Shown here: positions 841 to 63,917 of the stretch, piece by piece
Layout: each line of letters opens with the position of its first letter
Numbering within the stretch: the first letter of the stretch is position 1
Notes under the pieces: generated by a model
What the model was told of the DNA's origin: nothing
Seen by the model: the letters and a program-made list of their open reading frames with translations, nothing else
Databases searched by the model: none
Assembly: GCA_043228905.1 (NCBI GenBank)
Contig: JBHGNT010000013.1
Location: 1,612,001-1,676,000, forward strand
Length of the DNA stretch: 64,000 nucleotides
Source: Azolla caroliniana
Taxonomy: Eukaryota > Plantae > Polypodiophyta
Direction: 5' to 3'
Program-made: the position numbers and the translations under genes

Positions 841-2931
841 ACGACAATATTACTTCCCAACCCCTTCCCGAGCAAGGGTTTGTTGCCCCTTTTGTGGGAC
901 TGGTGGCTTTCGTTGATCATGACTCGTCGAGTTTTCGAGATCACCGCACGAGCCGAGTGATCAAACGGGTACAAGCAAAGATGAGCATGCAAGATGAACA
1001 CACAAGGGGACGATAACACAAACACGAATGCTTGTACGTCTTTATGAGGAGGAGATGTGCATGGGCATGTCCGAACGCTCCCTCATCACAAGACGTCGAA
1101 CGTACAATGAAAGGGACGATAACAGAAACACAAATGCCCGTACGTCTTTATGAGGAGGAGAGGTGCATGGGCACGCCCGAATGCTCCCTTGTCACAAGAC
1201 GGCTGAACGTACAAGGAAGACACAAAACACACGCACAAATGCTCGTACGCCTTTATGAGGAGGAGAGGTGCATGGGCAATCCCGAATGCTCCCTCGTCAC
1301 AAGACGACCGAACGTACAAGGAAGACACAAACACACACACAAATGCTCGTACGTCTTTATGAGGAGGAGAGGTGCATGGGCATGCCCGAAACGCTCCCTC
1401 GTCACAAGACGCCCGAACGTACAAGGAAGACACAAACACATGCACAAATGCTCGTATGCCTTTATGAGGAGGAGAGGTGCATGGGCACGCCTGAAACACT
1501 CCCTCGTCACAAGACAACCGAACGCACAAGGGGACGATAACACAAACACAAATGCCCGTACGTCTTTATGAGGAGGAGAGGTGCATGGGCACGCCCGAAT
1601 GCTCCCTCGTCACAAGACGGCTGAACGTACAAGGAAGACACAAAACACACGCACAAATGCTCGTAAGCCTTTATGAGGAGGAGAGGTGCATGGGCAAGCC
1701 CGAATGCTCCCTCGTCACAAGACGACCGAACGTACAAGGAAGACACAAACACACACACAAATGCTCGTACGTCTTTATGAGGAGGAGAGGTGCATGGGCA
1801 CGCCCGAAACGCTCCCTCGTCACAAGACGCCCGAACGTATAAGGAAGACACACACACACACAAATGCTCGTACTCCTTTATGAGGAGGAGAGGTGCATGG
1901 GCACGCTCGAAACGCTCCCTCGTCACAAGATGTCGGAATATACAAGGAAGACACAAAACACACACACAAATGCTCGTACGCCTTTATGAGGAGGAGAGGT
2001 GTATGGGCACGCCGGAAACACTCCCTCATCACAAGACGTCTGAACGTACAAGGAAGACACAAATACACGTACAAAATGCTCATGCACTATGCCCAAAACG
2101 CTCCCTCGTCACAAGACGGCTGAACATTCAAGTGGACGAGAACAAAGAAAGAAAGAAAGAAAACACGAATGATATTGGCTAAAGAAATAAATATGTGTTT
2201 GATTCCAATGCAAGAGGGCCCTTTATAAAATAGGGTTTGATTATAATGTGGCAACTTCTAGTTAACCACAAGCTCAACAAAACATAAATACTGAATGCCC
2301 TTAGAGACAAAAGCAAATCCGAACATGGAGCACGAACACGAAGAAGATGAGCACATGAGCACCGTAAACGAGCACTTCGAGTGCCAACCGGAAGAAGACG
2401 AGCACGTGGCGATGAGGGGATGAAGGGGTATGAGATGAAGAGAAATGGTGAAGATGAAGATGAAGAGCTCCGAAAGAAAAATGGCGATAGTCTCCTCCTC
2501 CCAAAAAGTCCTCTCCAAATGAGCCCCCCCCTCGACCCCCTTTTATAGGAAAAAAAGGAAGGGGGGTCGCCACATTCGTCTTCAATGCAAAAGGAATAAA
2601 ATTCCTCAAATCACGCTACATTGTAAGACCATATTTGAACCATGCACCTCTAGCGAGGAATCAATATTTCTATCCACTAGCGCATTAACTCTCTATTATA
2701 TAATATATAGTTCTATATCTAGAAATTTATAGCCTGTCTCCTCTCTACTTTTTATCTCTCATCTCTCATACTTTTTACACGAGTTTCTATACCTCCTTTC
2801 CACACTTTCTTTTCCCTTTTCTTTTGCATGTGCACAATTAATTGCGTTTGCATGCACACACATTGTACATGCACATTTTGACCCCCCCTTTCGCTGGTTT
2901 TTCCCTCACTCGAGCACACCACATCACGACA
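841..2931 (-). mobile_element. LTR B1 (5' or solo LTR of family B, interrupted by A1)
   Basis: Colinear with LTR 8498-10716; ends CATCACGACA at 2931; no PPT next to it; flank CCAT. Confidence 0.88.
1022..2130. repeat. ~105-bp tandem array (10 units plus a partial) inside LTR B1
   Basis: TTTATGAGGAGGAGA recurs at about 1041, 1147, 1252, 1356, 1461, 1565, 1670, 1774, 1877 and 1983. Confidence 0.95.
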
Positions 2932-3739
2932 CCATTAGACCATCTGTGCCTCGACATGTTCTTGGGCCATCCGTTCCGCAATGGTCACCTGGAGGCGAGT
3001 GAGAAAGCCGATGAGCTCATATGCTGTGCCATGTTGTAAGATTGCACCGAGCTTGTAGGACTCGGGCATGTCCTTGAGGGTCAACACTTCTTCCACCAAG
3101 ATGCGAGACGCTTGTCCCTTCTCTGTATTCTCTGTCAAGGACATGGCTTTGTCTAGGATGACAATGTCAGTCTTATCGGGAGCGATGACCAATTGGAGCT
3201 TTTCGGCCGAGGAGTCCCTTTGCTCTTTGCTGTGTCATTGCAGCTTGCGACGTTTCTTGGTAGGGCTTGTCTGGGAGGACGTTTTCGTTGCATCCACTGG
3301 TTCTTCTCGGAGCCATTTCGGCCGCTCCACGGATGACTACGTGTTGTTGTTCATGCTTATCTGAGTTTCTTTCCGACGGTCCTATCATAGGCTGGCTGAT
3401 TTGAGCTTAGGCATTTCCATCGGAGTAGATGTCTTGGGATTTTCACGCCCCCTAATGGTGATGTTGTCTTCTGGTTCCTAGGTCTTGGCAATGGTGGTCG
3501 GTAGTGGCGAGGTTACTGTTTGGATAGGCGTATCATCTTGCCATTCCTCCTGAGCAACTGTAAAGCTCGTTGATGTTTCGCCCGGGTGGGCGGGGCAGGG
3601 AGGGTGAGGGTTCGGCGGGGTGTGGTAGTGGAATGGGGAGGGTAGAGCACAAATAAGTAGTGTGCTAGAGCAGGCAAGAACCATTTTCCTGCCTGGAAAG
3701 CCGACAAGCCAGCACGAATGCCTTCCCCTGTGATGATTC

Positions 3740-4019
3740 TGACGTGAAATACGTGGATTAATCTCCAGCCACAACCGAAGCGTAGATCACTTGATGACAA
3801 TAAAAAAAAACACAAACGAAATGGGAATGGAGGTAAGTCGACAAAATAGAAAGAGAATACACAGGATATTAACGTGGAAAACCCTGAGAGGGAAAAACCA
3901 CAGGAGTCCACAGACTCCAAACTATCACTCTATAAAGAATACAACATGGAGCACAGAGGCAACGACCTATTGCTCACAATCTTCGCCTAGCAGCAGTTAC
4001 AACAGAGACATGCTCTATA

Positions 4020-4055
<36 letters not shown>

Positions 4056-4443
4056 CAGTCGTTACACCAAAATTACTCTATCATCATCACTATTAAGTTT
4101 GCCCTAGGTCATATTTATACTAATATGACTTTCGGGCTATTTACAAATATAGCCCCAGTGGGCTCTCTAGAACATATTTACATATATGTCCCTTCCATCC
4201 GATGAGATGTTCTCACCGGGCCTGCAACATCCGGTTCTCACCGGGTCTTCCTTGCCGGGTACTCGTCATCCGGTTCTCACCGGGTCTTCCGTTGCCGGGT
4301 GGTACTCCACATCCGGTTCTCACCGGGTCTTCCGTTGTCGGGTACTCCACATCCGGATTCGGCTGAGGCCTATCGGCCTCGGCTGAGTTGCTCATCAACA
4401 CTGTTCTTCTCACTTCCCATCCGGAGGGACCTGTTTCCTAACA
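3740..4443 (-). mobile_element. Solo LTR, Copia (D-related)
   Basis: TG...CA ends; perfect 5-bp TSD GATTC (3735-3739 / 4444-4448); shares TTAACGTGGAAAACCCT..GGAAAAACCAC and CATATTTATAC..TATGACTTT blocks with D LTRs. Confidence 0.88.
4205..4360. repeat. ~40-bp tandem repeats (3-4 units) in the solo LTR
   Basis: CATCCGGTTCTCACCGGGTCTTCC recurs. Confidence 0.85.
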
Positions 4444-8497: not shown

Positions 8498-10716
8498 TGT
8501 CGCAAGTTTCGCACGTGTGTGTTACTTGGCGGGACCATGGGGGTCATGGACTAGGGAGCACGAAGGGATAGAGAAGACCCGAGGCTTGCTTTATGACAAT
8601 ACTACTTCCCGATCCCTTCTTGAGCAAGGGCTCGTTGCCCCTTTTGTGGGACCGGTGGCTTTCGTTGATCACGCTCTTCGAGTTTTCGAGATCACCGCAC
8701 GAGCCAAGTGATCAAATGGGTACAAGCAAAGATGAGCATGTCGGATGAACGCACAAGGGGACGATAACACAAACACAAATGCCCGTACGTCTTTATGAGG
8801 AGGAGAGGTGCATGGGCACGCCCAAATGCTCCCTTGTCACAAGACGGCTGAACGTACAAGGAAGACACAAAACACACGCACAAATGCTCGTAAGCCTTTA
8901 TGAGGAGGAGAGGTGCATGGGCAAGCCCGGATGCTCCCTCGTCACAAGACGACCGAACGTACAAGGAAGACACAAACACACACACAAATGCTCGTACGTC
9001 TTTATGAGGAGGAGAGGTGCATGGGCACGCTCGAAACACTCCCTCGTCACAAGACGCCCGAACGTATAAGGAAGACACACACACACACAAATGCTCGTAC
9101 TCCTTTATGAGGAGGAGAGGTGCATGGGCACGCCCGAAACGCTCCCTCGTCACAAGACAGCCGAATGTACAAAGAAGACAAAAAACACACACACAAATGC
9201 TCGTACGCCTTTATGAGGAGGAGAGGTGCATGGGCACGCCCGAAACGCTCCCTTGTCACAAGACGACAGAATGTACAAGGAAGACACAAACACACACACA
9301 AAATGCTAGCACACCTTTATGAGGAGGAGAGGTGCATGGGCACGCCCAAAACGCTCCCTCGTCACAAGACGACCGAATGTACAAGGAAGACACAAACACA
9401 CGCGGAAATGCTCGTACGCCTTTATGAGGAGGAGAGGTGCATGTGCACACTCGAAATGCTCCCTCGTCATAAGACGACCGAACGTACGAGGAAGACACAA
9501 AAACACGCACAAAATGCACGTACGCCTTTATGAGGAGAAGAGGTACATGGGCACGCCCGAAACGCTCCCTTGTCACAAGACGGCCGAACGTACGAGGAAG
9601 ACACAAACACACACACAAAATATTCGTACGCCTTTATGAGGAGGAGAGGTGCATGGGCACGCTGGAAACGCTCCCTCGTCACAAGACGACCGAACGTACA
9701 AGGAAGACACAAACACATGCACAAATGCTCGTACGTCCTTATAAGGAGGAGAGTTGCATGGGCATGCCTGAAACACTCCCTCGTCACAAGACGGCCGAAC
9801 GTACAAGGAGACGAGAACAAAGAAAGAAAGGAAGAAAAAATACAAATGATACTGGCTAAAGAAATAAAGATGTGTTCGATTCCAACGCAAGAGGGCCCTT
9901 TATAAAATAGTGTTTGATTACAATGTGGCAACTTTTAGTTAACCACAAGCTCAACAAAAGATAAATACTAAATGCCCTTAGAGACAAAAGCAAATCCGAA
10001 CACGGACCACAAACACGACAAAGACGAACACATGAGCACCACATAAATGCCGACCCCTACGAACCACAACCACCCGAACGAGCACACGTGCTCGCAACGA
10101 CGAACGGGGGTGAACCAATGTCGAACTCATGAAGCTCGGGCTCACGAGCACTGTAAACGAGCACTTCGAATGTCAACGCGAAGAAGACGAGCACGTGGCG
10201 ATGAGGGGATGAAGGGGTATAAGATGAAGAGAAAATAGTGAAGAAGATGATGAAGAGCTCCGAAGGAAAAATGGGGATAGTCTCCTCCTCCCAAAACGTC
10301 CCCGAAGATGAGTCCCCCTCGACCTCCTTTTATAGGAAAAAAAGGAAGGGGGTTACTTATTTTGTCTTCAATGAAAAAGGAATAAAATTCCTTAAATCAT
10401 GCTATTGTAAGACTAGATTTGAACCAAGCACCACTAGCTAGAAGTCAATGCAACTATCCACTAGTCCATTAACTATATCTTATATAATACATAATTCTAT
10501 ATCTACAAATTCATAGCCTGTTTCCCCTCTACTTTTTATCTCTCCTCTCTCTTACTTTTTACACGAGCTTCTATACCCCCTTTCCACCCTTTCTTTTCCC
10601 TTTTCTTTTGCATGTGCACAATTAATTGCGTTTGTGTGCACACACATTGCACATGCACATTTTGACCCCCCCCTTTCGTCAATTTTTCCCACTCTCGAGC
10701 ACGCCACATCACGACA
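8498..10716 (-). mobile_element. 3' LTR (2.2 kb) of Gypsy element B2
   Basis: TGTCGC...CACGACA ends; PPT GGTGGGGGTGGA abuts at 10717-10728 on the minus strand; left flank CTGG where intact Copia has CCGG. Confidence 0.92.
8770..9812. repeat. ~105-bp tandem array (10 units) inside LTR B2
   Basis: Same unit as 1022-2130. Confidence 0.95.
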
Positions 10717-11956: not shown

Positions 11957-14900
11957 TGTTGGGATTTCGGTCCCTTTCGGATGGGATGGTCGGATATCGG
12001 AGATGAATGCCGACAAGCCCGGTTTCGGTTTCGGATCCGGATGACGAAGACCCCGGCTTCGGTGCCGGATGACGAATGTACCCGGAGAGCGATCCGGATG
12101 CAGGGACATATCCGTGAATATGTTCGCTACGAGCCCCCTGAGGCTATAGTTGTAAATAGCCCAAAGTCATATAAGTATAAATATGACTTAGGGCAAACAG
12201 TTTTTCTGTTGCTCATTATTTTTCTGTTTTTCCACTCAAGAGGAGTGAAGAGGGAGCAGCCGTGAGAGAGAGAGAGAGATAGAGCGCGAGAGAGGAAGAG
12301 GTAGACGCCTCTGTGTATTTCCGCCGCCTGTGGCGAGGACAGCGAGCTCAAGGTCGTTGCCTTGGAGCTCGTCATTGTATATTTCTCTGTGCATAGTTTG
12401 GTTCGGAGTCTCGCACTCCCGTGGTTTTTCCCGTATAGGGTTTTCCACGTTAATCCCTGTGTATCGCGTCTTTCTCTGTATTTCCTATTTTCTGCTACAT
12501 TGATCCGCGATTAATCGGTTGTGGCCGAGTGGTGAAGGTGAATAGAAGCGTCAATTCTCAACAAACTGGTATCAGAGCGACTGTTGCAGAAAATGGAAGG
12601 CGGCGGCAGCGGGCAGCCGATGATGATGGTGCTGAATGCACAGAATTACGCCGACTGGAAGATCAAGATGGAGGATCTTCTGATTGTTCGGGACCTGTAC
12701 GAACCGATTGACAGGTCGGAAATACCGAAGGGGGTACTTGAGTCGGAGTGGAAGCTCCTGAACCGGAAAGCCGTAGCGACGATCCGACAATATGTCGACG
12801 TAAGCGTCCTGCAACATGTGGCGAACGACACCAACGCATACGAGATGTGGAAGAAGCTGTCTGGCCTCTATGAGAGGAAGAATGCGTTGAACCGGACCTC
12901 CCTGATGAGGAAGATAGTGAACCTCAAGTACCGGGACGGCGAGAGTATGGTAGAACACGTAAGCACGTTCATGGGATTCGTGAATCAGCTTGCGGCGATC
13001 AAGTTCCCGTTGGAGGATGCAATGCAAGCCATCATCCTGATGTGTACATTGCCGGACAGCTGGGAGAACTTGGTGGTGACTCTCAGCACCTCCTGCACCG
13101 AAGATAACTTGTCCCTACAAACGGTAAAGACAAGTATTCTGAATGAAGAAGCGCGTCGGAGAGATAAGGAACCGGCCTCCGACCCGAAGATGCTGTTTAC
13201 CGAATCGGATCGGGGAAGACAATGGAACCGGAGTCCGCAAAGACGGGAGAAGTCGGGGACCCGGTCGCAGTCAAGAGGAAGGCCCACATGCTTCCACTGT
13301 GGGAAGCCGGGGCACTTCCGAAAGAATTGTCGGCATTACCGAAAAGACAACGGAGCCGACGACACCGACTCGAAGAAGTCACCGGAGAGAAACGGTGCAT
13401 ACCGGGGAGCCACGGACCGGAGAGGTTCGGATCGGCGAGGGCAAGACCGGAAAGGAACAACGGCACTCGCGGCAAGTGAGGAAGAAATCATGCTCATCAC
13501 CGAAGAAGGTGAGCTAAACGTTGCCGGCGATGAGACGACCTGGGTGGTCGATTCCGGAGCATCGTTCCACCTGACCCCGGAGAGAAGATACTTCTCATCC
13601 TACACAGCCGGCGAGCATGGCTGTGTTCGGATGGGAAATGAAGGTACGTGCCGGATTGCCGGCATAGGAGACGTGTGGTTGACAACCCCGACCGGATGCA
13701 AAATGCTGCTGAAAGATGTCCGACACGTTCCGGAGGTCCGATTGAACCTGATTTCGGCCGGGAGGCTAGATGATGAAGGCTACACGGGTAGCATCCGGAA
13801 CGGTGTCATGAAGTTCAGCAAGGGGAGCTTGATAGTGGTTCGGGCCCGGAAGGTCAACACACTGTACCTGATGAATGCCCGGTTATGTCCGGAAGAGCTG
13901 AATGTGGCAGCCGACACTGCCGGTGAGCTGTGGCACAAAAGACTGTGCCACATGAGTGAGAAGGGGATGAAGAGGCTTGCAGAAGACAACCTCATCCCAG
14001 TGAAGCACGTGCACCTGGAGAAGTGCACCGATTGCCTGGCCGGTAAGCAGAACCGAACCTCCTTCCACTCAAGGCCACCGACGAGACGTAGCGCACCATT
14101 GGAGTTGGTGCACACTGACGTGTGTCAGGTAGAGACGAAGTCACATGGCGGAGCCCAGTACTTCGTAACATTCATCGATGATCATAGCCGAAAACTGTGG
14201 ACGGCACCGATGAAGACAAAGGACCAAGTGTTGTCCGTCTTCAAAGAACTCCATGCGAGAGTGGAAAGAGAATCCGGCAAGAAGCTGAAAGCGATACGAG
14301 CGGATAACGGAGGGGAATACCGAGGGCAGTTCCAGGAGTACTGTCGCTCGAAGGGAATCCGACTCGAGTTTACTGTGCCGAAGACGCCGGAACTGAACGG
14401 GCTGGCCGAGAGGATGAACCGGACCATAATGGAGCGGGTCCGGAGTATGCTGGCGCATGCGAAATTACCCAAGGGGTTTTGGGCTGAGGCAATGTCGACG
14501 GCGACATACGTGATAAACAGATCACCCTCAGTACCTTTGGACGGAGACACGCCGCAGAAAGTGTGGACTGGTAAGGAAGTGTCCTACCGGCATCTGAAGG
14601 TGTTCGGGTGTCTCGCATACATGCATGTGGCAAAGGACCGGAGAGGAAAGCTAGATCCGAAGACCCGGCCATGCATATTCCTCGGTTACGGCGACGACGA
14701 GTTCGGCTACCGAGTATGGGACCCGGTCGACAAGAAGATATTCCGGAGTCGTGATATCATCTTCATGGAGAACAAGACGCTCGCCGACTGGGAGTCGGAG
14801 AAGAAGATGAAGAGCTCCAAGTCGACCGGTGAGGATCAACTCTACGAGGAGCAGTCCCGACCGGCAAGGGACCGGTTAGCACTCGAGGATCCGGCCGAAG

Positions 14901-21800: not shown

Positions 21801-23623
21801 GTCCCAATTATCCGGTTCCGCAATCTGTATCTCGGCCTCATCCATGGCCGTTCTATCTCCGCAAGTCGAGAGGGCATTTTGTTCCGCACCCTCTCCCGTG
21901 GTATCGTCGTACCGATCTTCTGCCGTCGCATGGGGCAAGTCCGTCTCCTTAGTCTCGGCTTGCGGCCTCCGTCTTTCCTCTTCCTCGAGCATCGCCTCGA
22001 GAGCTGCGTACGCCTCCGCAATCCTGGCCCCAACGCCGACCCTTGCCGACTCTCTCTGCCGTTCGGCCTCTTCCCGCTGTGATGGCACGCCGTCGCGTCC
22101 CTTCCTCTTAGCCTTCTCGGCTCGCTCTTTGTCTAGCCGTTGGCACACCCTTCCGACCTTCGACCAGTCCTCCGTAAGCCCATTCGCTCCATCATCGTCT
22201 TCGAGCTCAATCCCGATGGCCTCCCGTTCCGCTCGGTCGATCGACCTAACGAACAATAGGACCTTCGACCTTCGACCAGTCCTCCGTAAGCCCATTCGCT
22301 CCATCATCGTCTTCGAGCTCAATCCCGATGGCCTCCCGTTCCGCTCGGTCGATCGACCTAACGAACAATAGGACCTTGTCCACCCCCACCAAACCTTGTT
22401 CCCGCTCTGGGAGCCGAGCAAGCCGTCGCTTGAACTCTCGGAATGTCTTCGTCGCGCCCCGATGGGTCTTTGCCGATGCTACCCACTGGTCGAAGTCGTG
22501 CCGTCCCCGGCTCTTCCGCCGTCCTCCGTATGGCCTCCCACGAACTATGAGCCTCATGGAGCTCCTTTACTTTCGCATGCATCCGGACAGCTACGACCCG
22601 ATAGAAGAACTCTAGCCTCAACGCCTCGTCTACGCCACGCTCCTCCATTTCCGCGTTGTAGGCTTCCAAGTAAGATGGGACTTTGTCCCTGTTGAAACGA
22701 CCGACTCTTTCGACCACTCGCTCAACCGCTTGTTGCGCTGCTTCTCGCCTCATCACCACTCGTGCCGACTCCAACACCACTTCGGCCACCATCTCCGCAA
22801 GGTCGTCGTCTTCCGACTCCATCCTCCCTTGCCGCCTTTCACATCGGGTTCACCAAATATGTCGCGTTGTTACGCGCGTGCGTGGAGAAAGGCGGGACCA
22901 CGGGGGTCTTGGACTAGGGAGTGATGGAGCGTAGGAGGTCGTGCTTCACCGTTTCTGGGGCATCCCAGAAACATACCGGAAGCAACCGAAGGGAGAGAGA
23001 GAGAGAGAGCGTGCTTAACACCGACTCACGCACACACACGCACACACACCCACACACAGCCCAACCCGGCTCACGCCTTATGTACAGAAAACGCAGGAAA
23101 AGGGGAAGCACCCGACACCAACAGAGACGCGAATATACGTAGACAGACGCAAATGTATACATATATAAAGAAGAATACATTCCCGGCTTCGAGCCGGACT
23201 GAGGTAGGTTACAATAGTCATCTACTGCCAAGCCGCCGTCGGGGAGCTCTCAGCTCGTCGCGCCGAGCGGGGTCTTGAACAGGAGGCCGAACCAAAGCAA
23301 ACCCTAAGCAAACACGAAGGGGGAGAAGAAGGAGAAGAAGAAACCTAACTCTAAACCTAACGGTATACCCTCTAATGCAAAATGGGCAACCCTTTCACAA
23401 AGGGCGCTCCCTTCCTTTTATAGAACAAGGAGAGGGATGCGTTACAATGTGGGACAAATCCCGACTTACATGGGATCGTCTGTCCCGACTTGACTACTCT
23501 TCGGCGCCATAAAGGCGCCCTCGATATTCACACTAAATGTACACGGGTGCGTACACACGCTGCACCCCACTGATGTAGCCAATGTTTCCCGATTTCCGCC
23601 TCTGGCCGAAATTCTTCACGACA
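18815..23623 (-). mobile_element. Non-autonomous gag-only Gypsy element E
   Basis: LTRs 18815-19577 and 22860-23623 nearly identical; TSD CCAT/CCGT; Trp PBS 22838-22855; PPT 19578-19589; gag-like start 22822; no PR, RT or INT motifs. Confidence 0.92.
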
Positions 23624-48800: not shown

Positions 48801-51192
48801 TTGATCGACAGTACTCCTGGAACTGCCCCCGGTATTCCCCTCCGTTATCCGCTCGTATCGCTTTCAGCTTCTTGCCGGATTCTCTTTCCACTCTCGCGTG
48901 GAGTTCTTTGAAGACGGACAACACTTGGTCCTTTGTCTTCATCGGTGCCGTCCACAGTCTTCGGCTATGATCATCTATGAAAGTTACGAAGTACTGGGCT
49001 CCGCCATGTGACTTCGTTTCTACCTGACACACATCGGTGTGCACCAACTCCAATGGTGCGCTACGTCTCGTCGGTGGCCTTGAGTGGAAGGAGGTTCGGT
49101 TCTGCTTACCGGCCAGGCAATCGGTGCACTTCTCCAGGTGCACGTGCTTCACTGGAATAAGGTTGTCTTCTGCAAGCCTCTTCATCCCCTTCTCACTCAT
49201 GTGGCACAGTCTTTTGTGCCACAGCTCACCGGCAGTGTCGGCTGCCACATTCAGCTCTTCCGGACATAACCAGGCATTCATCAGGTACAGTGTGTTGACC
49301 TTCCGGGCCCGAGCCACTATCAAGCTCCCCTTGCTGAACTTCATGACACCGTTCCGGATGCTACCCGTGTAGCCTTCATCATCTAGCCTCCCGGCCGAAA
49401 TCAGGTTCAGTCGGACCTCCGGAACGTGTCGGACATTCTTCAGCAGCATTTTGCATCCGGTCGGGGTTGTCAACCACACGTCTCCTATGCCGGCAATCCG
49501 GCACGTACCTTCATTCCCCATCCGAACACAGCCATGCTCACCGGTTGTGTAGGATGAGAAGTATCTTCTCTTAGGGGTCAGGTGGAACGATGCTCCGGAA
49601 TCGACCACCCAGGTCGTCTCATCGCCGGCAATGTTTAGTTCACCTTCTTCGGTGATGAGCATGATCTCCTCTTCACTTGCCGCGAGTGCCGTCGTTCCTT
49701 TCCGGTCCTGTCCTCGCCGATCCGAACCATTTCGGTCCGTGGCTCCCCGGTATGCACCGTTTCTCTCCGGTGACTTCTTCGAATCGGTGTTGTCGGTTCC
49801 ATTGTCCTTTCGGTAATGCCGACAATTCTTTCGGAAGTGCCCGGGCTTCCCACAGTGGAAGCATGTGGGCCTTCCTCTTGACTGCGACCGGGTCCCCGAC
49901 TTCTCCCGTCTTTGCGGACTCCGGTTCCATTGTCTTCCCCGATCCGATTCGGTAAACAACATCTTCGGGTCGGAGGCCGGTTCCTTATCTCTCCGACGCG
50001 CTTCTTCATTCAAAATACTTGTCTTTACCGTTTGTAAGGACAAGTTATCTTCGGTGCAGGAGGTGCTGAGAGTCACCACCAAGTTCTCCCAGCTTTCCGG
50101 CAATGTACACATCAGGATGATGGCTTGCATTGCATCCTCCAATGGGAACTTGATCGCCGCAAGCTGATTCACGAATCCCATGAACGTGCTTACGTGTTCC
50201 ACCATACTCTCGCCGTCCCGGTACTTGAGATTCACAATCTTCCTCATCAGGGAGGTCCGGTTCAGCGCATTCTTCCTCTCGTAGAGGCCCGACAGCTTCC
50301 GCCACATCTCATATGCGTTGGTGTCGTTCGCCACATGTTGTAGGACGCTTACATCGACATATTGTCGGATCGTCGCCACGGCTTTCCGGTTCAGGAGCTT
50401 CCACTCCGACTCAAGTACCCCCTTCGGTATTTCCGACCTGTCAATCGGTTCGTACAGGTCCCGAACAATCAGAAGATCCTCCATCTTGATCTTCCAGTCG
50501 GCGTAATTCTGTGCATTCAGCACCATCATCATCGGCTGCCCGCTGCCGCCGCCTTCCATTTTCTGCAACAGTCGCTCTGATACCAGTTTGTTGTGAATCG
50601 ACGCTTCGATTCACCTTCTCCGCTCGGCCACAACCGAGTAATCGCTAATCGATGCAGCAGAAAATAGGAAATACAGAGAAAGCCACGATACACAGGGATT
50701 AACGTGGAAAACCCTATACGGGAAAAACCACGGGAGTGCGAGACTCCAAACCAAAACTATACAGAGAAGTATACAATGGCGAGATGCAAGGCGACGACCT
50801 TGAGCTTGCTGTCCTCGCCACAGGCGGCGGAAATACACAGAGGCGTCTACCTCTTCCTCTCTCTCGCGCTCTATCTCTCTCTCTCACGGCTGCTTACACT
50901 TCACTCCTCTAGAGTGGAAAAACAGAAAAATGAGAAGCAACAGTAAAACTGTTTGCCCTAAGTCATATTTATACTTATATGACTTTGGGCTATTTACAAC
51001 TATAGCCTCAGGGGGCCCATAGCGAACATATTCACGGATATGTCCCTGCATCCGGATCGCTCTCCGGGTACATTCGTCATCCGGTACCGAAGCCGGGGTC
51101 TTCGTCATCCGGATCCGAAACCGAAACCGGGCTTGTCGGCATCCATCTCAGATATCCGACCATCCCATCCGAAAGGGACCGAAATCCCAACA
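45872..51192 (-). mobile_element. Intact Ty1/Copia element D2
   Basis: 604-bp LTRs 45872-46475 and 50589-51192 (at least 2 differences seen); TSD GTAGG; Met-i PBS; PPT. Confidence 0.97.
46486..50559 (-). CDS. Copia Gag-Pol polyprotein, nearly identical to D1
   Basis: Uninterrupted ORF with all catalytic motifs. Confidence 0.97.
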   Translation of the reverse strand: MEGGGSGQPMMMVLNAQNYADWKIKMEDLLIVRDLYEPIDRSEIPKGVLESEWKLLNRKAVATIRQYVDVSVLQHVANDTNAYEMWRKLSGLYERKNALNRTSLMRKIVNLKYRDGESMVEHVSTFMGFVNQLAAIKFPLEDAMQAIILMCTLPESWENLVVTLSTSCTEDNLSLQTVKTSILNEEARRRDKEPASDPKMLFTESDRGRQWNRSPQRREKSGTRSQSRGRPTCFHCGKPGHFRKNCRHYRKDNGTDNTDSKKSPERNGAYRGATDRNGSDRRGQDRKGTTALAASEEEIMLITEEGELNIAGDETTWVVDSGASFHLTPKRRYFSSYTTGEHGCVRMGNEGTCRIAGIGDVWLTTPTGCKMLLKNVRHVPEVRLNLISAGRLDDEGYTGSIRNGVMKFSKGSLIVARARKVNTLYLMNAWLCPEELNVAADTAGELWHKRLCHMSEKGMKRLAEDNLIPVKHVHLEKCTDCLAGKQNRTSFHSRPPTRRSAPLELVHTDVCQVETKSHGGAQYFVTFIDDHSRRLWTAPMKTKDQVLSVFKELHARVERESGKKLKAIRADNGGEYRGQFQEYCRSKGIRLEFTMPKTPELNGLAERMNRTIMERVRSMLAHAELPKGFWAEAMSTATYVINRSPSVPLGGDTPQRVWTGREVSYRHLKVFGCLAYVHVAKDLRGKLDPKTRPCIFLGYGDDEFGYRVWDPVDKKIFRSRDIIFMEDKTLADWESEKKMKSSKSTGEDQLYEEQSRLARDRLALEDPAEDGEETEPTEEDENDTGTGPDPEMDSDEEESEEPITEAPERRYPLRERRAPRRFPEPEHVLLTDEGEPESFEEAKHDTQSRRWLSAMQDEMDSLHENHTYELVELPKGKRALRNKWVFKLKPGDAGNPPRYKARIVVKGFQQKKGVDFDEIFAPVVKMTSIRTVLSIAASMDLEVEQMDVKTAFLHGDLEEEIYMQQPEGFEKKGKEHLVCRLKKSLYGLKQAPRQWYRKFDSFMTDEGYLKTQSDHCVFVKKFEGGDFLILLLYVDDMLIVGRDQVKIRMLKKALHRTFSMKDLGPARQILGMHIIRDRKKKQLWLSQEKYVTKVLHRFNMSEARPVGSTLPANCKLSSKQSPKTKAEKEDMMKVPYASAVGSLMYAMVCTRPDIGYAVGVVSRYMSNPGKEHWNAAKWILRYLKGTANVCLRFGSGKPELDGFTDSDMSADADTSRSTSGYVMTYAGGAVSWQSRLQKSVALSTTEAEYMAAVEAGKELIWMKDFIRELGIQQEEYRLYCDSQSAIHLAKNAAYHSRTKHIQRRYHWIRERIEDKEFVLTKIHTDENGSDMLTKVLTPDKLEACRKRIGLERHPMPK

Positions 51193-54099: not shown

Positions 54100-57000
54100 T
54101 GTCGTGACGATTTTCGGCTATGGTGTGAAACGGAGTGAGATGAATAAACCAAGGAAGTGCAACATTGCACATGCACTTAGCAAATAAACCTAAGGCCTAG
54201 TGGCACTTGAGTTCATATAGAGGGGCGCAAGTAAGGTTTGAACCTTGCACCTCTAAGATACAAGATAATTGCCTTACCACTAGGACAACTATCATATAGT
54301 GTGAATTTTATGTATTTACTTTTCATATATGAATTATAGATGAAACAACCATTAGAAAACCATGTGCACAAAACCATGGTTCTAAACCCATGGTTTGTGC
54401 ATGACATAAGCAAAACCGTGTGCACAAAACCATGGCTTTAGCCCATGGTTTTGTGCATGTCACAAGCATGGAAAGACCTATAAAAGCCTCTAGTTGGGCT
54501 TGTGTAAGGGGGGCTCAATATGTGATATCACCAACACCATTATCATCAATATAATTATATTTGTCTTTATCTTCTTCATATTTTTCTACTTCTCAAGTGT
54601 ACAATCTTTCTTCTTCTCAAGTAAACCAATTTCATCTAATCTTACATTGATCGTCATCTCTTCGATAATTCTGCAAACATCCTCCCCAGTCCAAGACCCT
54701 GGTGGTCGCTCGAGTAGCACACGCACGCGCGAATCTTCGCGACATCATTTGGTGAACCCGGCGTGAAGAGCAGCAGGGGAGGACGAAGATGGATGGCGAA
54801 TATCTCATGAAGGCAATGTCAAAAAGGATGATGGAGTTTCTGAGAGAAGGGAAAAGAAGAAATGAAGCCCAACAAGCCGTCGAGAGGGTAGTTGAGCGAG
54901 TGAGCTATTTTAACGGTGCCGAAGTCCAAAGTTTCCTAAAAGTCTACAATGCGGAGATGGATTCAAGAGGTGTGGACAAAGCTATGAGGCTAGAGTACTT
55001 TTGTCGGGTGGTGTCTCAACTGATCTTCAAAGATGTAAAAGAGCTTCTAGAAGCTCATGATTCATGGGAGACTTTTGAGAAGGCTCTATTGGAGGAATAT
55101 GGCTATGAGAGATTGAAGGGACGAGATCGACGCAACTTCGACCAATGGGTGACATCAGCGAAGACCCACCAAGGTGCGACACAAGCATTCGTAGACTTCG
55201 AGCATCGTTTTTCTCAACTCTCGGAGCGAGAACAAAGATTAGTGGGGGTCGATAAGGTCCTTATGCTCATGAAGTCAATCGATCGAATGGAAAGGATGTC
55301 CATTGGCCTCAAACTCGAAGAAGATGACGGTGCAAATGGCCTCATCGAGGATTGGAGCAAAGTGGAAAGTATATGCCGACTACACGATAAGGGGCAAGCG
55401 AGAATATCGACGAGAACAAGATGGCCCATGAGGGACGATCGAAGAGGGACGAGATGCAACAACGCGCCACCAACAAAAGAAATGAAGCTTAAAAGGGAGA
55501 CAAAACCGAGGCGAATGGTGATCGAAGAAGAAGAGACCTCCCAACAAATGCGGGTTAATGAAGTGGCCAATGCAATGGCTTAGGTTCGGTATGACGGTAC
55601 CGAGAGAGAAGGTGCGAAACAAGTCACCTTCTTGTCTTACGAAGAAACGACGGCCAAGGAGGAGGCCGATGACTCGAGGACGGCGAACGCCACTTCGAGG
55701 GAGGATAAATGTTTAGGAACACGCATTGTGTACGAAACATCGGGTGATGAAGGTGCAAGCATGAGAAGATCTTGCATGATCGAGGGAGATAAAGTGTTTG
55801 AGTTCGACATGATTGAGGAGGTAGCCATGACAAACGACATCGAGTCGGAGGTGGCTATGAACGAGTCGACGACGGATAGCCATGTCGACACTTTCTCCAC
55901 GGTTGTTCCAGAGACGTTGGCGGTTGCACCCGTGTGCCAACGTGAGACCGGAGAGACGGAAGGTGGTGACGGGAAGACAAAGGCCCAACACAAGGAGGAA
56001 GAAGATCGAGGAAGAAAGGATATCCCCACACCTGTTCTAGAGACTTCGACGGTTGTGCACGTGCGCCAATGTGAGACCGGAGAGACAGAATGTGTGGACG
56101 AAAAAGCGGACGACGGAAGGGCGATGAAGAAGACAAGGTAAATGTGCATGAGCGAAGGGATTCCTTCACACCGGTTTCGGAGACTTCAACAGTCGAGACC
56201 GTGTGTCGACATAAGACCGAAGATAAAGGAGGTGGCGAAGAGGAGACAATATGGCTCGAGGCGAGCATACACGGAGGGAAGGATATGGCTGACGAGTAGG
56301 CCAAGGATGAAGCCGCGGTTGAGTTCGATGGAGAGGCTGCATGCGGGAAGGAAGGAAGAGTCGAGAACCGGTCGAACCGGAAGACGATCCGGCCGGGATT
56401 CCGGCCCGAACGAAGGAAGATCCACATGGGAGCCAATCGACCGGGGCCGACCCGGCCGAAACCTGATTCGGCGAAAATCGATCGGACGATTCCGATCCAA
56501 AAGGGGGCCGACCTAGCCAGAATCAATTGGTCGAGCCCGACTCGGGGAAATGCGAATGCAGACGAAGGCCAATCGAGCCAAGAAGCGATCGGCGGAGACC
56601 GATCCGGACAAGGGCAAACCCAGCGTAATCGAAGATGGACACGAACGATCCACAACATCCAGTTGAAGACGGTGAGCATGAGGAGTGGCTAGGAATCCAA
56701 TCGAAGGACACGCGCGGTGGATGAAGGAAGAGCGGTTGGATCCAGGACATCGTTCAGTAGATCTACTACAACCGATCGGGGAAGAAGGTGTGAGCGCCAT
56801 ATATGGTGGATCGGGTGGCTACGGTGGTTCAGTTGGAAAGATTACGCATACTCGAAGTGGAAGACGAAGTCAGACGAGGTCGACGACTGTGCATAGGAAC
56901 TTCGTTGATCACCATTGCCAAAGATCTCACCTCTTCACCTTTCTCGGCACATACCGGAGGATGTGCGGGTTTGGTGGGGGTGGATGTCGTGACGATTTTC

Positions 57001-57604
57001 GGCTACGGTGTGAAACCGAGTGAGACGAATAAACCAAGGATGTGCAACATTGCACATGCACTTAGCAAATAAACCTAAGGCCTAGTGGCACTTGAGTTCA
57101 TATAGAGGGGCGCAAGTAAGGTTTGAACCTTGCACCTCTAAGATACAAGATAATTGCCTTACCACTAGGACAACTATCATATAGTGTGGATTTTATGTAT
57201 TTACTTTTCATATATGAATTATAGATGAAACAACCATTAGAAAACCATGGTTCTAAACCCATGGTTTGTGCATGACATAAGCAAAACCGTGTGCACAAAA
57301 CCATGGCTTTAGCCCATGGTTTTGTGCATGTCACAAGCCTGGAAAGACCTATAAAAGCCTCTAGTTGGGCTTGTGTAAGGGGGGCTCAATATGTGATATC
57401 ACCAACACCATTATCATCAATATAACTATATTTGTTTTTATCTTCTTCATATTTTTCTACTTCTTCTTTCTTCTTCTCAAATAAACCAATTTCATCTAAT
57501 CTTACATTGATCGTCATCTCTTCGATAATTCTGCAAACATCCTCCCCAGTCCAAGACCCCGATGGTCGCTCGAGTAGCACACGCACACGCGAATCTTCAC
57601 GACA
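54100..57604 (+). mobile_element. Non-autonomous gag-only Gypsy element J2
   Basis: LTRs 54100-54744 and 56985-57604; perfect TSD ACGT; PBS 54750-54767; PPT GGTGGGGGTGGA. Confidence 0.94.
54789..55583 (+). CDS. gag: Gag-like (capsid) ORF of J2, probably once continuing into a repetitive acidic tail
   Basis: FNGAEVQSFLKVYNAEM..WETFEKALLEEY..VLMLMKSID..DWSKV aligns with gag of I (FSGKDATSYLASYRAEM..WEEFEGRLLEKY..VLLFVKSVD..DWAAV). Confidence 0.8.
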   Translation: MDGEYLMKAMSKRMMEFLREGKRRNEAQQAVERVVERVSYFNGAEVQSFLKVYNAEMDSRGVDKAMRLEYFCRVVSQLIFKDVKELLEAHDSWETFEKALLEEYGYERLKGRDRRNFDQWVTSAKTHQGATQAFVDFEHRFSQLSEREQRLVGVDKVLMLMKSIDRMERMSIGLKLEEDDGANGLIEDWSKVESICRLHDKGQARISTRTRWPMRDDRRGTRCNNAPPTKEMKLKRETKPRRMVIEEEETSQQMRVNEVANAMA

Positions 57605-59542
57605 ACGTCGTCTCTGTTCCTGCTCCAGTATGGCCATACTACGTACCTGAGCCTCTCCTAATTCGAGGAGTTGTTGTAACCGTAGCTGCTTGGACTGGCC
57701 TTCCGCTAGGTGGTCTTGTACTTGAATTCACAGACTTGGCACCTGGAATTCAACAGGCATTACGGATTCTAACCCAAATGCAAGTCGGAATGGCACAGAC
57801 TATATGATAGTCTTATAACTGGTCTGATATGCGCACAAACCGTTGTGCAATTTAGTGTCCCAGTCCGTTCTATTTTCATTCACGATCTTCTTCAATATTT
57901 TCTACAAGATTTTGTTTGTGGACTTTGCTAGTCCATTCGCTTGTGGATAGTATGACGTGCTTTTCTTATAGACGATGGCGTAATGGTGCGTGAGCTCGTG
58001 GATGACTGAATTCAGAAAGTGAATCCCTTGATCACTAATGAGCTCGATGGGGCAACCAAAACAGCACCAGATGTAATCGTACAAAAACTTTGCCGTAGAT
58101 GCCGCTGTGTTGTCCTGTAGTACCTTTGCTTCCACCCACTTAGTGCAATAGTCCGTGGCTACCAAAATATACCGATTACTTGTTCGCGCTGCTGCCGGTG
58201 TAAAGAGTCCCACAAAATCAAGACCCCACTTCTGGAATGGATCTAGTGGAAGAATGGGTTGATGTGGCATTCTCGCGCTCTCCGTGGGCTGACCCAATCG
58301 TTGACATAAATCACATTTCTTGCAATAGAGGTGCGTTGTCCTTTTGCGTGGTCGGCCACCATAGACCTGCTTGCCATATTTTTCTGGCCGTAACATCTCC
58401 CGCATAGTACCCCCCTGTCATACCGTAGTGAGCTTCGCGCAAAACAACTTCCTTCTCATCCTGACATACCCCGCGTCGCCAGAGTCCATCGTTGCCCTTG
58501 TGATACAGTATTCCTTCGACTAGGCAAAAGTTACGGCTACGGACAACCAATCGCTTCTTTTTGTCCGTCCTTAATTGTGTCGGTGGCATTCCTGTAGTGA
58601 AAAATTATGTCATTTCCATTAGCCATCGATCCGGAAAATTTTTCTCTTCCCGTGACGCTACCATCGCGACCCCCAAAACATCCGCATTGAGAAAGTCATT
58701 GTCATCTGTCCTTGCAGTTTCCCCGTTATCCACCCTGCTCAAGAAATCTGTCACGACGTGTTGCGTACCTGGGCGATGCTGAATTATGAAGTCGAATTCT
58801 TGGAGCAATAACATCCATCTAGCTAGTTTTCCTGTCAGTGCTTGTTTCTCCACAAGGTAGAGCAACGCCGCATGATCTACGTTGTCGTGCCCTTCGGCTC
58901 CGGATCGTTGCGTGAGTCGGGTGGGAACCGCCGAGGTTTTGGACTAGGAGGAAAAGGAATAAAACTTAAGGCTAGTTATGAATAGTAGAAAGAGAAGTAA
59001 GATAGCAATCTCGTGAATCCCACGAGATTAGTGTATTTAAAACAATATTTAGATTACAAGAGTAATTTAGATGGCAAAATTCGTGAATCCCATGAATATA
59101 TTAGATTGATCAATCCTTATATTTTAATCAGCAACCTTATACATATTTCTCTCCTCCTTATATAAAGATGGAAGAGGCTAAGCATGGCTTCATGCTTTTC
59201 CACCAAATGTGTCCATGCACACTAAATGTGCATGTGATGCTTTGTCATTTCCTAATTATAGGGCTCATGCACGCTAGATGTGCACGAGTCACTTTTAATG
59301 TCACGTGTAAATAAAATATTCACACCCTAAAGAATACATGATTTTTACCTTTTAATAAAGGTATGTGTAAATAAAGGTCTTATACGTATTAAATTTATTG
59401 TATAACACTAAAGATAAGTTATTACAATGGTAAAGTTGAGGTTTATCTACGTGAAGGTGCAGGGTTCGAATCTTGCCCTATACATGTAATAAATATTTTG
59501 AGATATTATTTATTTATTTATATGTATCTAAAATCGGATATA

Positions 59543-62500
59543 TTATTTTATGGTTTTCACGTAGTGTGTGGAATACACTACGACACTCGCCCCTTCCGAA
59601 CCCGCACATCCTCCGGTATGTGCCGAAGTTCTCGATTCCTCATATCCGTCTTCACCCAAAGATTCCTCCGATTCTCCTCTTATGTCGACTATGAGTTGTA
59701 ATTCACTTTCTTCGCTTCCCGAATCACCGTGGTCTTCGTCCGATTGCTCCTCGTTGTCGGCCTTGGCTTGGATCACATAGGGTTTGTCGTCGGTCCGCTT
59801 CTTGAAAATCTTCACCCGCTTCCCGGCTATAGGCACTCGTAGTATTGTTCCATCCAACTCGGACAGTCGGTACGTTCCGTTGTCGAAGACTTTACGAACC
59901 TCGTATGGCCCGAACCACCTTTTTGCGAATTTCCGCATCGTTGTATGTTGATGGTCCAAACTACTGTCATAGACGATCACCCAATCTCCTCCTTCAATCC
60001 TCCTCGGTCGTAGTTGGTGCTTTGCGTCGAACCGGCTTTTGTTCCGGAATCGTGCTTCTTGTTGTCGGCGTATTGCTTCCGCTATGTCTGCCGGTCTTCC
60101 CTCTAGTTGTCGTATCCGGACCGCTAGTAGTTCTTCTCGGCTCATCTCTTCCTTCCACGGTAGCACTGTCCATGTTGCGATCACGGTTTCCGTCGGCATT
60201 ACTGGTGCTTGTCTGGTCATGAGTTCTGCCGGCATGTAACCGGTTACGGAGCTATGCGTCGTCCAATCCGCCCATAGTGCATACGGAAGCATCTGCGGCC
60301 AGTCCTTCACCTTTCCATCGCATGCCTTCGCAAGTGCTTTCACGATCGGACTATGTCCTCGTTCGATTTTCCCGTTGGCCTCCGGATTGTATGTTGTTGT
60401 CAGCGTTAACCGAACTCCGTGTTTGGCGAAGAATCCCCTAGCTTTATCCGAGTCGAGTTCTCCCTGGTCCGCAATCACTTGTCCTACGCACCCGTACCTG
60501 CAAAATACTTCCTCCAAAAGAAATTGGCATACCGCGGAACACGTTTTCCTCTGAAGCGCTCGACCTTCTACTTGATTCGTGAGATCTTCCCGAGCTAATA
60601 CCAAGTATTTCTTTTGTCCGATCCCGGTCGGCATGGCCACTATGTCGACCATCCACTTGAAGTTGATTGTCGGTGAGAATGTCGGATGTAACTTATCTCG
60701 ATGTCGAACCCCGGAGTAGACTTGACATTTCTCGCAGCTTTCCGTGAACTCCGCGACATCTTTGTACATTTTCTTCCACCAATATTTTTGCGTGATCTTC
60801 ACAAATGTTGCCCATGTTCCTCGGTGTCCAGCCCAATCGGATTCGTGAAACTCTGACATTATCCGGTTTCGTTGCTCTTTTGTCCCGACTACTCGAAGTG
60901 GTATACCATCCGGTCTTTTCGGCGCCCTCCATATTAATCCGTTTTCCAAGAAGAACTTTTGGACTTGCCTCTTCTTCCTTCGCATCTCGGCTCTTCTTTC
61001 TTTATCGTTTGTTGAATCCTCGGCCTCTTGTAACATCTTTCCGATCATCAAGCTTTCTCCCTCGTATTCTTCTTCCTGGAATTCTCGGATTACTTTTACT
61101 CGGCATATGTGCTCCGACGCGAAGTAGTCTTCGGAAACTTCTTCATTATCCGATTCGGTTATGTTGTCTCCGAACCGAGCCCTTGATAACATATCCGCTA
61201 CCGCGTTGTCCTTCCCCGAGATTTGTCGAACCTCCGGATTAAGCGACTTGACATATGCAACCCACCTTAGCATAGCTACATCCGGTATCGTACAACACCG
61301 TATCATCCCGAGTATCGGAAGACAATCCGTCTCGATCACTACTTCGGCTCCGATCAAATAATCCCGATCCGATTTTATCGCCGACACGACTCCCCACAGT
61401 TCTCTTTTGACTTGTGCATATCCACGTTGCCTTTCGTTGAGAACCTTTGCTCCGAATCGGATCGGATACCGCGAACCATCCGAGTCGGCTTGATTGATGA
61501 CCCACCCGATACCGGTTGGACTTGTATCAACCGTTACTATGATCGGTCGGTCATAGCTCGGCTTCTTAAGTGCTTCCGCCCTCCGAAGTGTCTTCTTCAA
61601 TTTCTTCATGGCTTTGGTGTGTTCCGGTTTCCATTCAAATTTCTTACCTTTCCGCAACAAGTGGTAGAGCGGGTCCGCTATATGTGCATAGTGCGGAATC
61701 CATATGTGATTGAATGCACATGCACCGAGAAACCTTCGGACTTCGGATGTTGACTCACATACTTCCTCCATAGCTTGAATCGCATCGATCTTTGTTGGTG
61801 ACGGTCTTCGGCCGTAGGGCCGACATAGATGTCCGACCACCAATATTTCTTCTTGCCCGAATGCCGATTTCTCCCCGGAAAGTGTTAGGTGCACATCTTC
61901 TAGCTTTCGCAACACTTTCTCGCAATCATGAATATGGTTGACCACGAACTTTCCGCATCCCCGATCATCCATAGTCTCATCTTTTTCTTCTACCGCGCAT
62001 CCTTTCATTGGAATGTCATCGAGGAACGGCATCGTTATCTCCGGAATGCAATCTCGAAGCACCTTGTTCATCGCGTTCATCATATGAGCAACCGAGTTTG
62101 TCGCTCCTTGTGGTAGTGTGCACATTCGGACTAATCCTATCGGTGTTCGCATTGTTGTGATGTCTCGGCTCTCCACGGCTAGTTGGAATTGGTCATATCC
62201 GGAGTATAGGTCTCCGATGGAGTATATCGCACGACCGGCAAAAGCTTCCGCAAATTCGTCCACTGTCGGACCGACTCCCGAGTTTCGGATCGTGACCTTA
62301 TTCACCGGTTGCAAGTCTTGGATAAATCGGAGTGACCCATTCTTCTTCGGAACCGTTGTCGTGCCTTTCGGCTCCGGATCGTTTGCGTGAGTCGGGTGGG
62401 AACCACTGGGGTTTTGGACTAGGAAGAGGAGAGTTTTAAGGCTAATAAGAATATAAATATGTTGTAAGAAAGAGTTATAGTAAACTCGTGAATCCCACGA

Positions 62501-63917
62501 GTGTATTGTATTAGATTAATCAATATGAATATAAGAATATAAACTTCGGTTGAAAGAGAATGATATAGAATTCTCGTGAATCCCACGAGTATAGTTTATT
62601 AATTGGTGTATTTTAGAAACATATCCAGTTTCCAAATATTTTTCACACACAATTACATTGTGCTCCCCATCCTTATGTAGTGATGAGGAAGTCTTAGTAA
62701 TCTATGCTTTTTCTCTAACTATAGACCCCATGCTTTTCCTATAGATAGACTATATGCTTTATCTAAAGTGATCATGCTTTTTTCTAACTTGTGCGTTTTT
62801 TATCATGCACGCTAGATGTGTATGTGTAGCTTTTTCTTTTGTTATGCGTTTTTCTAATGTTTATCCTAGCGTGAATTTACCTTTCTATGTGGGACATCTA
62901 TGCTTTAACACTAATGAAATGCTAGTGTAATGGTAAGACATTACATTATTAACATGGAGGTGCAAGGTTCAAATCTTGCCCTATGCATGTTCCATTTATT
63001 TTGCTATTTTCTTCTATTTCTTCATTTTTTATTGAATCTAATACTATATACGTTTTTCACGTAGTGTACAAAATACACTACGACACCGTGAACCAACGAT
63101 TTGAGTACGGAGCAGTTGATGGCTCTAGAATCCCCATCGCCACCTTCTCCTTGAGCAAGTCAATGACTTTCGGAATATGTGCTCGTGAAACTGGATTCGG
63201 CTTCAGGTTCCACGGTACATGGTCAATCGTGAAGATCACCATCGGCTCCACTATTCTCGGATCGATGCACCCTATCTCCCTTGATGTAAATGCAAACGCT
63301 TTGCCGTGTTGCTCCAACATCTCGCGAAACCGTTCTTCTTCTTTTTGTAATAGGAACCCACCTCCACCGATCCGAAGTTTCTTCCGGGTCTCATCCGTGA
63401 AGGCATGTCCGATATCCACGGACTTCCGAAGTGTCGGATCTCCCGAGACTTCTTTCCTCTTTTGTTCGCTATCGGCGGGTAGTGGTCCCGCGGCCGGTTT
63501 CACCTTCTTCTCCACGGTCTTGTATTTTGTACTTACCATTGCTTCTTCTTTGCGGAGCGTATCCGGCTCCATTTTTGCAATGATATCGTACATCTCGACC
63601 GATTCCACCAGGACTACCCGGTTCCCTTGGCTTTTATCTTCCGCAAGCTCTTCAAGTCGTTGTAGCGTGCTCCCATAGAACACTTCTTCGACTATCCCCA
63701 TGATTTCTTCATCTTCTTTTATTATTGATGCCGACCGCAACTTCTCCTCCACTTGTCGGTATCCTTTCTTCAATCCTCCGGTTACGGTCGTGTACGTAGA
63801 TGCCCCATCCGGACCGATTCGTACATGTTTTGCTCCGAGAGTTTTCTTCTTGTGTGGGGTATTAGGGCTTCTCGGACTATCACTTCCCCACTCCGCAACA
63901 GTCCGCTTTAAAAATCC
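59543..63917 (-). pseudogene. pol: pol of A2 (RT-RH-INT), open except for the solo-LTR insertion
   Basis: ORFs 63078-63773 and 59543-62314 join as YSNRWFTV|PKKNGSLRF; LPQGATNS, FLDDIP, VDTSP, WMVD and WFGPY. Confidence 0.92.
62357..63085 (-). mobile_element. Solo LTR of an A-related subfamily
   Basis: TGTCGTGCC...CTACGACA ends; perfect 4-bp TSD CCGT; ends like family A, middle diverged. Confidence 0.92.

What the first reader, a model, noticed from the sequence alone, without database searches (positions are those of the whole stretch)
841..63089. All 11 insertions of the Trp-primed Gypsy clade have 4-bp target sites centred on CpG
Seen, two-sided TSDs: CCGT/CCGT (I), CCGT/CCGT (solo 62357), ACGT/ACGT (J2), CCAT/CCGT (E), CTGG/CCGG (H) and GCGT/TCGT (J1). 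One-sided flanks: ACGA (841), CCAT (2932), CTGG (8494, where intact Copia has CCGG), GTGG (25960) and ACGT (58879). Every site is N-CG-N or its 5mC deamination product (TG/CA). Removing one 4-mer restores the host reading frame. Copia insertions here give 5-bp TSDs without this bias (CCTCC, GTAGG, GATTC). Known: most plant LTR elements make 5-bp TSDs with weak preference, and heterochromatin targeting is usually credited to chromodomains, which these integrases lack (GPY/F plus an acidic tail only). Inference: a CpG- or mCpG-directed integrase that steers the clade into other methylated TEs and explains the deep nesting.
Basis: partly seen in the sequence, partly recalled or inferred. Interest (0 to 1): 0.85.

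Follow-up and report, generated by a model that had tools for sequence, protein, structure and literature searches.

The report
CG-targeting Phygy-type retrotransposons, nested cluster
Eleven jumping-gene insertions in this plant DNA sit in four-base target sites centred on CG or its decayed form, a habit already published for the moss Phygy retrotransposons that these elements likely belong with, and whether the CG must be methylated is untested.

Summary
All 11 flanks are at the stated coordinates. Duplications are 4 bp: 3 were measured against uninterrupted relatives and 2 against empty-site contigs. All 6 two-sided sites keep CG in at least one copy. Twelve more outer flanks from metagenome contigs give 9 CG, 3 TG/CA and 0 TA (CG background 4%). 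Neumann et al. 2019 already define the non-chromovirus lineage Phygy (186 Physcomitrella elements) with a 4-bp NCGN TSD (100%), a tRNA-Trp PBS (81%) and no extra domain. The window's Gag/protease is 48-56% identical to Physcomitrium proteins, and its pol has no chromodomain or aRH. These are therefore very likely new Phygy-type families in another host, probably a non-seed plant; a tree against REXdb could not be run. Small additions: the base 5' of the CG is A or C in 39 of 46 strand positions and T in only 1; one site was hit independently twice; and an acidic residue is invariant at the target-contacting integrase position. The TG/CA forms fit ordinary decay after insertion and say nothing about methylation at insertion. 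The idea that methyl-CpG steering explains the nesting is untested.

The parts
115..132 (-). 18-nt primer binding site of element A (tRNA-Trp type, identity recalled)
   Evidence: the same PBS lies at 22838, 38128, 41582, 43174 (-) and 54750 (+)
137..840 (-). Element A 5' LTR (K family), inserted into the LTR of B; one-sided flank ACGA 841-844
   Evidence: homologous LTR of C has ATGA
841..2931 (-). Element B LTR remnant with a 105-bp tandem array; one-sided flank CCAT 2932-2935
3740..4443 (-). Probable solo Copia LTR, 5-bp TSD GATTC (control)
8498..10716 (-). Element C 3' LTR, inserted in a Copia RT; flank CTGG 8494-8497, where intact Copia has CCGG
11957..17283 (+). Copia 1, 5-bp TSD CCTCC, nested in the pol of C (control)
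18815..23623 (-). Element E, TSD CCAT/CCGT, 4-base overlap on relatives
25964..26701 (-). Element F 3' LTR; flank GTGG 25960-25963 in the gag of C
29703..43807 (-). Element H (hosts I and J1), TSD CTGG/CCGG
31850..38798 (-). Element I (6,949 bp, gag-pol), TSD CCGT/CCGT
38833..42254 (-). Element J1 (short, gag-like only), TSD GCGT/TCGT; empty sites mostly read GCGT
45872..51192 (-). Copia 2, 5-bp TSD GTAGG (control)
54100..57604 (+). Element J2, TSD ACGT/ACGT
58883..59585 (-). Element K 3' LTR; flank ACGT 58879-58882
59711..62356 (-). K pol: RT, RNase H and integrase (H2C2, DDE core, SH3-like GPY module, basic patch, acidic tail); no chromodomain, no aRH
62357..63085 (-). Solo LTR in the K RT, TSD CCGT/CCGT; an I-family LTR occupies the same site in locus L033

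Best explanation
The insertions are copies of several Ty3/gypsy families, likely of the Phygy lineage, that make 4-bp target duplications centred on CG, and the preference likely comes from the integrase itself reading and bending the target DNA, with no need for methylation shown. Shown: the 4-bp length, the central CG, a skew to A/C before the CG and G/T after it (palindrome MCGK), kinship with Physcomitrium proteins, and the lack of a chromodomain or aRH. Inferred: a foamy-virus-like intasome with a 4-bp stagger needs a bendable pyrimidine-purine step at the centre, and this lineage narrows that step to CG by base contacts. Candidate contacts are the invariant Glu/Asp at the position of PFV Ala188 and the conserved basic patch of the SH3-like C-terminal domain. 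After insertion the CG is methylated with the element and decays to TG/CA. Nesting mostly reflects a region made of CG-rich elements.
For: Neumann 2019: Phygy, 186 elements, 4 bp 100% (NCGN), tRNA-Trp 81%, no extra domain. 17 of 80 hits of a window gag piece are Physcomitrium patens proteins; the 11 put in a tree are 48-56% identical over about 200-240 residues. Independent flanks: 12 of 12 in CG/TG/CA and 9 of 12 CG against a background of 0.041 (p 7e-11). A bendable-step-only model gives p 2e-5 for 9 CG, and p 0.003 for no TA in 23 sites. Base 5' of the CG: A 23, C 16, G 6, T 1 of 46, against a T background of 0.31-0.37. The same RT site was used by two LTR families (L033:1352 and window 62357). 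Best structural matches are PFV intasomes, which also make 4-bp TSDs with a central YR step. Glu 87 / Asp 12 of 99 rows at the Ala188 column. ZAM-group integrases in Drosophila target CGCG; that flies lack CpG methylation is recalled.
Against: No tree against labelled Phygy, Selgy or TatI sequences was possible (the REXdb file could not be read); the Physcomitrium proteins are not labelled Phygy, and the tree has no outgroup. TatI also has 4-bp TSDs and a Trp PBS and is excluded only by the missing aRH. Element I (6.9 kb) is shorter than published Phygy (7.7-10 kb). The sample is 23 sites, the 12 extra ones one-sided and from short-read assemblies that may repeat a genomic site. The residue assignment rests on alignment only. 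Nothing here excludes a boost from methylation.
Confidence: 0.72

Rival explanations
1. The integrase (or a partner) prefers methylated CpG, which steers the lineage into silenced elements and replaces a chromodomain.
For: Every identifiable host sequence is a retroelement. K-family variation is dominated by C>T and G>A, so the region is likely methylated. Phygy was reported nested in Tcn1 and enriched at liverwort centromeres. A 1992 paper on CpG methylation and retroviral integration exists (title seen only; content recalled as methylation creating hot spots).
Against: No MBD, SRA or chromo match at E up to 0.5. TG/CA copies fit decay after insertion. Copia 1, with a non-CG TSD, is nested too. 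One all-repeat window has no unmethylated control.
Confidence: 0.15
2. A host DNA-binding protein that recognises CG-centred palindromes such as ACGT tethers the integration complex.
For: ACGT is the commonest single site (7 of 23 sites), and one position was hit twice.
Against: The motif is centred exactly on the duplicated bases, as expected of integrase contacts rather than a neighbouring tether; no strong consensus beyond position 4.
Confidence: 0.08
3. Only generic bendability (any YR step) in CG-rich DNA, or a small-sample effect.
For: PFV prefers a central YR step; CG, TG and CA are all YR; CG is 27% of YR steps in the window.
Against: 9 of 12 independent flanks are CG (p 2e-5 under this model), TA is never seen in 23 sites, all 6 two-sided sites keep a CG, and Phygy has NCGN in the moss genome.
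Confidence: 0.05

Closest known systems
Phygy (Ty3/gypsy non-chromovirus; Neumann et al. 2019, PMC6317226)
   Same: 4-bp NCGN TSD, Trp-type PBS, no chromodomain, no aRH, coding region filling the internal part, Gag/protease kin in Physcomitrium.
   Different: Another host and a separate subclade (48-56% identity to the Physcomitrium proteins); element I is 6.9 kb against 7.7-10 kb (the authors call size of little use for classification); short gag-only derivatives; an A/C-before-CG skew not stated in the parts of the paper read.
TatI (non-chromovirus OTA)
   Same: 4-bp TSD, tRNA-Trp PBS in 75% of 4 elements.
   Different: TatI carries an extra aRH domain (100%); none is found here. No NCGN preference is given for it.
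Selgy
   Same: Short non-chromovirus with a 4-bp TSD.
   Different: tRNA-Ala PBS, about 5 kb, no NCGN preference given.
ZAM/Tirant errantiviruses of Drosophila
   Same: Gypsy integrase with a CG-rich palindromic target (CGCG); ZAM integrase binds the site in vitro.
   Different: Unrelated lineage with env, AGT/AnT ends and a longer fixed consensus.
Prototype foamy virus intasome
   Same: Best sequence and fold match of the integrase; 4-bp TSD with a central YR step.
   Different: Weak preference for any YR step; Ala at position 188 where this lineage has Glu/Asp.

Membership tests
Ty3/gypsy LTR retrotransposon | Paired TG...CA LTRs, PBS, PPT, order RT-RH-INT | tested here: met
Phygy | Groups with Phygy in RT/RH/INT trees (the primary criterion) | not testable with these tools
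   REXdb FASTA (Additional file 3) too large to read. Indirect only: Physcomitrium Gag/protease relatives at 48-56%, tree without outgroup
Phygy | 4-bp TSD | tested here: met
   5 of 6 two-sided insertions measured against empty sites or relatives; J2 by direct match only
Phygy | NCGN target preference | tested here: met
   CG in 8 of 11 window insertions and 9 of 12 independent flanks; the rest TG/CA
Phygy | tRNA-Trp PBS | tested here: inconclusive
   One conserved 18-nt PBS in 6 of 11 window elements and 13 of 39 loci; Trp identity recalled; no matching tRNA gene found
Phygy | No chromodomain and no aRH | tested here: met
   Pfam to E 0.5 on two window pol ORFs and four relatives; collinear with Ty3 pol
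TatI | Extra aRH domain | tested here: not met
Selgy | tRNA-Ala PBS | tested here: inconclusive
   The PBS is recalled as Trp, not Ala; not shown by a tool
Chromovirus (Tcn1, Galadriel and others) | Chromodomain at the integrase C-terminus | tested here: not met

The most novel reading that the evidence does not exclude
Phygy integrases read methyl-CpG directly at the centre of the target (an MCGK palindrome), using an acidic core residue and a basic SH3 patch conserved from moss to liverwort and fern relatives. They would be the first LTR integrases shown to target heterochromatin through DNA methylation instead of a chromodomain.
Probability: 0.12. Interest if true: 0.85.

Novelty: new member of a known kind. 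Interest (0 to 1): 0.3.

Why it matters
As it stands, it extends a published but mechanistically unexplained target preference (Phygy NCGN) to divergent families in another host, sharpens it to a likely MCGK palindrome and names candidate residues. That makes the question of how a plant LTR integrase picks CG testable. If methylation dependence were shown, it would be a new route of heterochromatin targeting and a sequence- and methylation-selective integrase.

Tried and rejected
Whole genome: none held, so no genome-wide logo. Viral contigs held no relative of the pol. A PBS pattern scan of viral contigs gave 31 matches, none in a tRNA. ARAGORN on the window gave one tRNA-SeC call inside an LTR, taken as spurious, and Rfam gave nothing. 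The ESM Atlas gave no result. Laying contigs on 58700-63300 did not list individual flanks. In one search, 16 of 32 listed J-family pieces extend 3 or more bases into the flank, but the list favours long pieces, so I did not count it. The first tree used the wrong reading frame and was redone. The 5-bp-with-shifted-ends reading was rejected (see observation check). Of 46 LTR termini found in 39 loci, 31 were internal PBS/PPT junctions and 3 were repeats inside LTRs (L007:534, L012:4155, L012:4170); these 34 were dropped before counting 12 outer flanks. The weakest kept flank is L003:333. Searches of the scan's earlier findings returned nothing. Paper searches for a mechanism or methylation test of Phygy targeting listed none. 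Kitamura 1992 was not held. A moss genome preprint had nothing relevant.

Full report
What the window is. The 64 kb are a pile of nested LTR retrotransposons. Self-alignment and Pfam show several Ty3/gypsy families with TGTCG...CGACA-type ends, plus two intact and one broken Copia. No genome is held. Named relatives of the gypsy pol come from Riccia (best hits 58-61% identical) and Adiantum, and of the gag also from Physcomitrium, so the host is probably a non-seed land plant (inference).

Checking the observation. All 11 flanks read as reported. LTR ends are fixed by the internal junctions with the PBS and the polypurine tract. I projected left and right flanks separately on uninterrupted relatives: the overlap is 4 for E, H and the solo LTR in every relative that gave both projections, and 5 for Copia 1. 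For I and J1, contigs from public runs cross the empty site and resume 4 bases into the opposite flank. J2 rests on the direct ACGT/ACGT match. A 5-bp reading with a shifted end is formally possible for E, H and the solo LTR, where the preceding base is A; it fails for I, J1 and J2, and the A is the invariant LTR end. The three Copia TSDs are as stated.

Is it chance? CG, TG and CA make up 18.9% of dinucleotides in the window; 11 of 11 gives p about 1e-8, but the class was chosen after seeing the data. An out-of-sample test came from 39 metagenome loci. Of 46 LTR termini in them, 31 were internal junctions, 3 were repeats inside LTRs and 12 were outer flanks. Those 12 show 9 CG, 3 TG/CA and no TA, against a CG background of 4.1% (p 7e-11). 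A model that only asks for a pyrimidine-purine step gives p 2e-5. These flanks are one-sided, come from short-read assemblies and may not all be independent.

The TG/CA sites. In E and H the partner copy has CG, so the change came after insertion. For C the intact Copia has CCGG. For F the two closest proteins (87% and 81% identical) have Pro-Ala across the site, consistent with a CG target. B is untested. Two of 6 TSD pairs differ by deamination; across five LTR pairs, 41 of 105 mismatches are CpG transitions over 163 CG sites. So decay at the TSD is about the ordinary rate, and it carries no information on methylation at the time of insertion.

Two small additions. Counting both strands of 23 sites, the base 5' of the CG is A 23, C 16, G 6 and T 1, whereas T precedes 31-37% of CGs in the background (p 0.003 in the window and 2e-5 in the loci, treating the strands as independent). 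The preferred site is thus closer to the palindrome MCGK than to NCGN. Second, in locus L033 an I-family LTR stands at the same position of the K-family RT as the window's solo LTR, which belongs to another LTR family: one site was used twice.

What is known. Neumann et al. [quoted passage not shown] Their table lists Phygy as 186 elements, 4 bp (100%, NCGN), tRNA-Trp 81%, 7.7-10 kb, no extra domain. Additional files 1 (per-element TSDs) and 3 (proteins) were too large to read and bear on both the MCGK skew and membership. Jedlicka et al. 2019 (PMC6911290; passages and section 7) also found 4-bp TSDs with GC-rich centres, Phygy mostly 4 bp, and Phygy nested in Tcn1. A liverwort genome paper (PMC12885004; passages) reports Phygy enriched at centromeres. 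PMC7466625 (passages) did not assign its families to Phygy in what I saw. Searches listed no study of the mechanism.

Membership. The window elements have one conserved PBS (6 of 11 elements, 13 of 39 loci), recalled as tRNA-Trp and not confirmed by a tool. They have no chromodomain, aRH, MBD or SRA match. A gag piece hits 17 Physcomitrium proteins among 80. In a 40-row tree of the Gag end and protease, the window copies form their own supported subclade beside the Physcomitrium, Riccia and Adiantum groups, at 48-56% identity to the 11 Physcomitrium rows; the tree has no outgroup. The primary criterion, a tree with labelled Phygy, could not be run. TatI (4 bp, Trp) is excluded by the missing aRH. 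I put membership at about 85%.

Mechanism. The integrase model (426 residues, the last 65 of the ORF, mostly acidic tail, left out; pLDDT 82) matches PFV and Ty3 intasomes best. PFV makes 4-bp TSDs around a bendable YR step, with Ala188 and Arg329 touching the neighbouring bases (PMC4176367, passages). Here the Ala188 column is Glu or Asp in 99 of 99 rows, and a KRxKxFxxR patch after the GPY module is present in about 96 of 99. I infer that a PFV-like bend plus direct base contacts narrows the YR step to CG. ZAM integrase binds its CGCGCG site in vitro, although that site alone did not suffice for cleavage (PMC2527525, passages; PMC5408687, passages). That Drosophila lacks CpG methylation is recalled. 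A methylation boost is not excluded: Kitamura 1992 (title seen in a reference list; text not held) is recalled as showing one for a retrovirus.

Nesting. Every identifiable host sequence is another retroelement, but the whole window is repeat DNA with CG at 6.3% (observed/expected 0.99), and Copia 1 is nested without the motif. The window cannot show that CG targeting causes nesting.

Verdict. A real and well-supported feature, already described for the Phygy lineage. New here are further families, a modest refinement of the motif and candidate residues. Interest 0.3; the methyl-CpG reading has probability about 0.12.

Noticed in passing
window 11957-17283 and 45872-51192: A very young Copia family: LTRs 100% identical in one copy and 2 differences in 604 bases in the other, each with an open 1374-residue frame.
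   Followed up: partly
window 995-2081 and 8742-9809: The LTRs of B and C (about 2.2 kb) carry arrays of a 105-bp unit.
   Followed up: no
window 38833-42254 and 54100-57604: J elements are about 3.4-3.5 kb with gag-like sequence only, probably non-autonomous partners; they share LTR sequence with H.
   Followed up: partly
window 57605-58882: RNase H-integrase fragment of a different gypsy lineage (about 25% identical), hosting K and J2.
   Followed up: partly
window 51193-54099: Unidentified segment with several open frames and a 175-bp tandem duplication; only weak coiled-coil-like Pfam hits.
   Followed up: no
L033:1352 versus window 62357: Two LTR families inserted at the same position of the K-family RT.
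   Followed up: yes
window 58700-63300: In four runs C>T and G>A dominate variation among K-family copies, and summed depth is far above single-contig depth, pointing to a high-copy, methylated family.
   Followed up: partly
window 25964 and 8498: The 5' LTRs of C and F are not in the window although their gag regions are, suggesting deletion or further nesting beyond the window.
   Followed up: no
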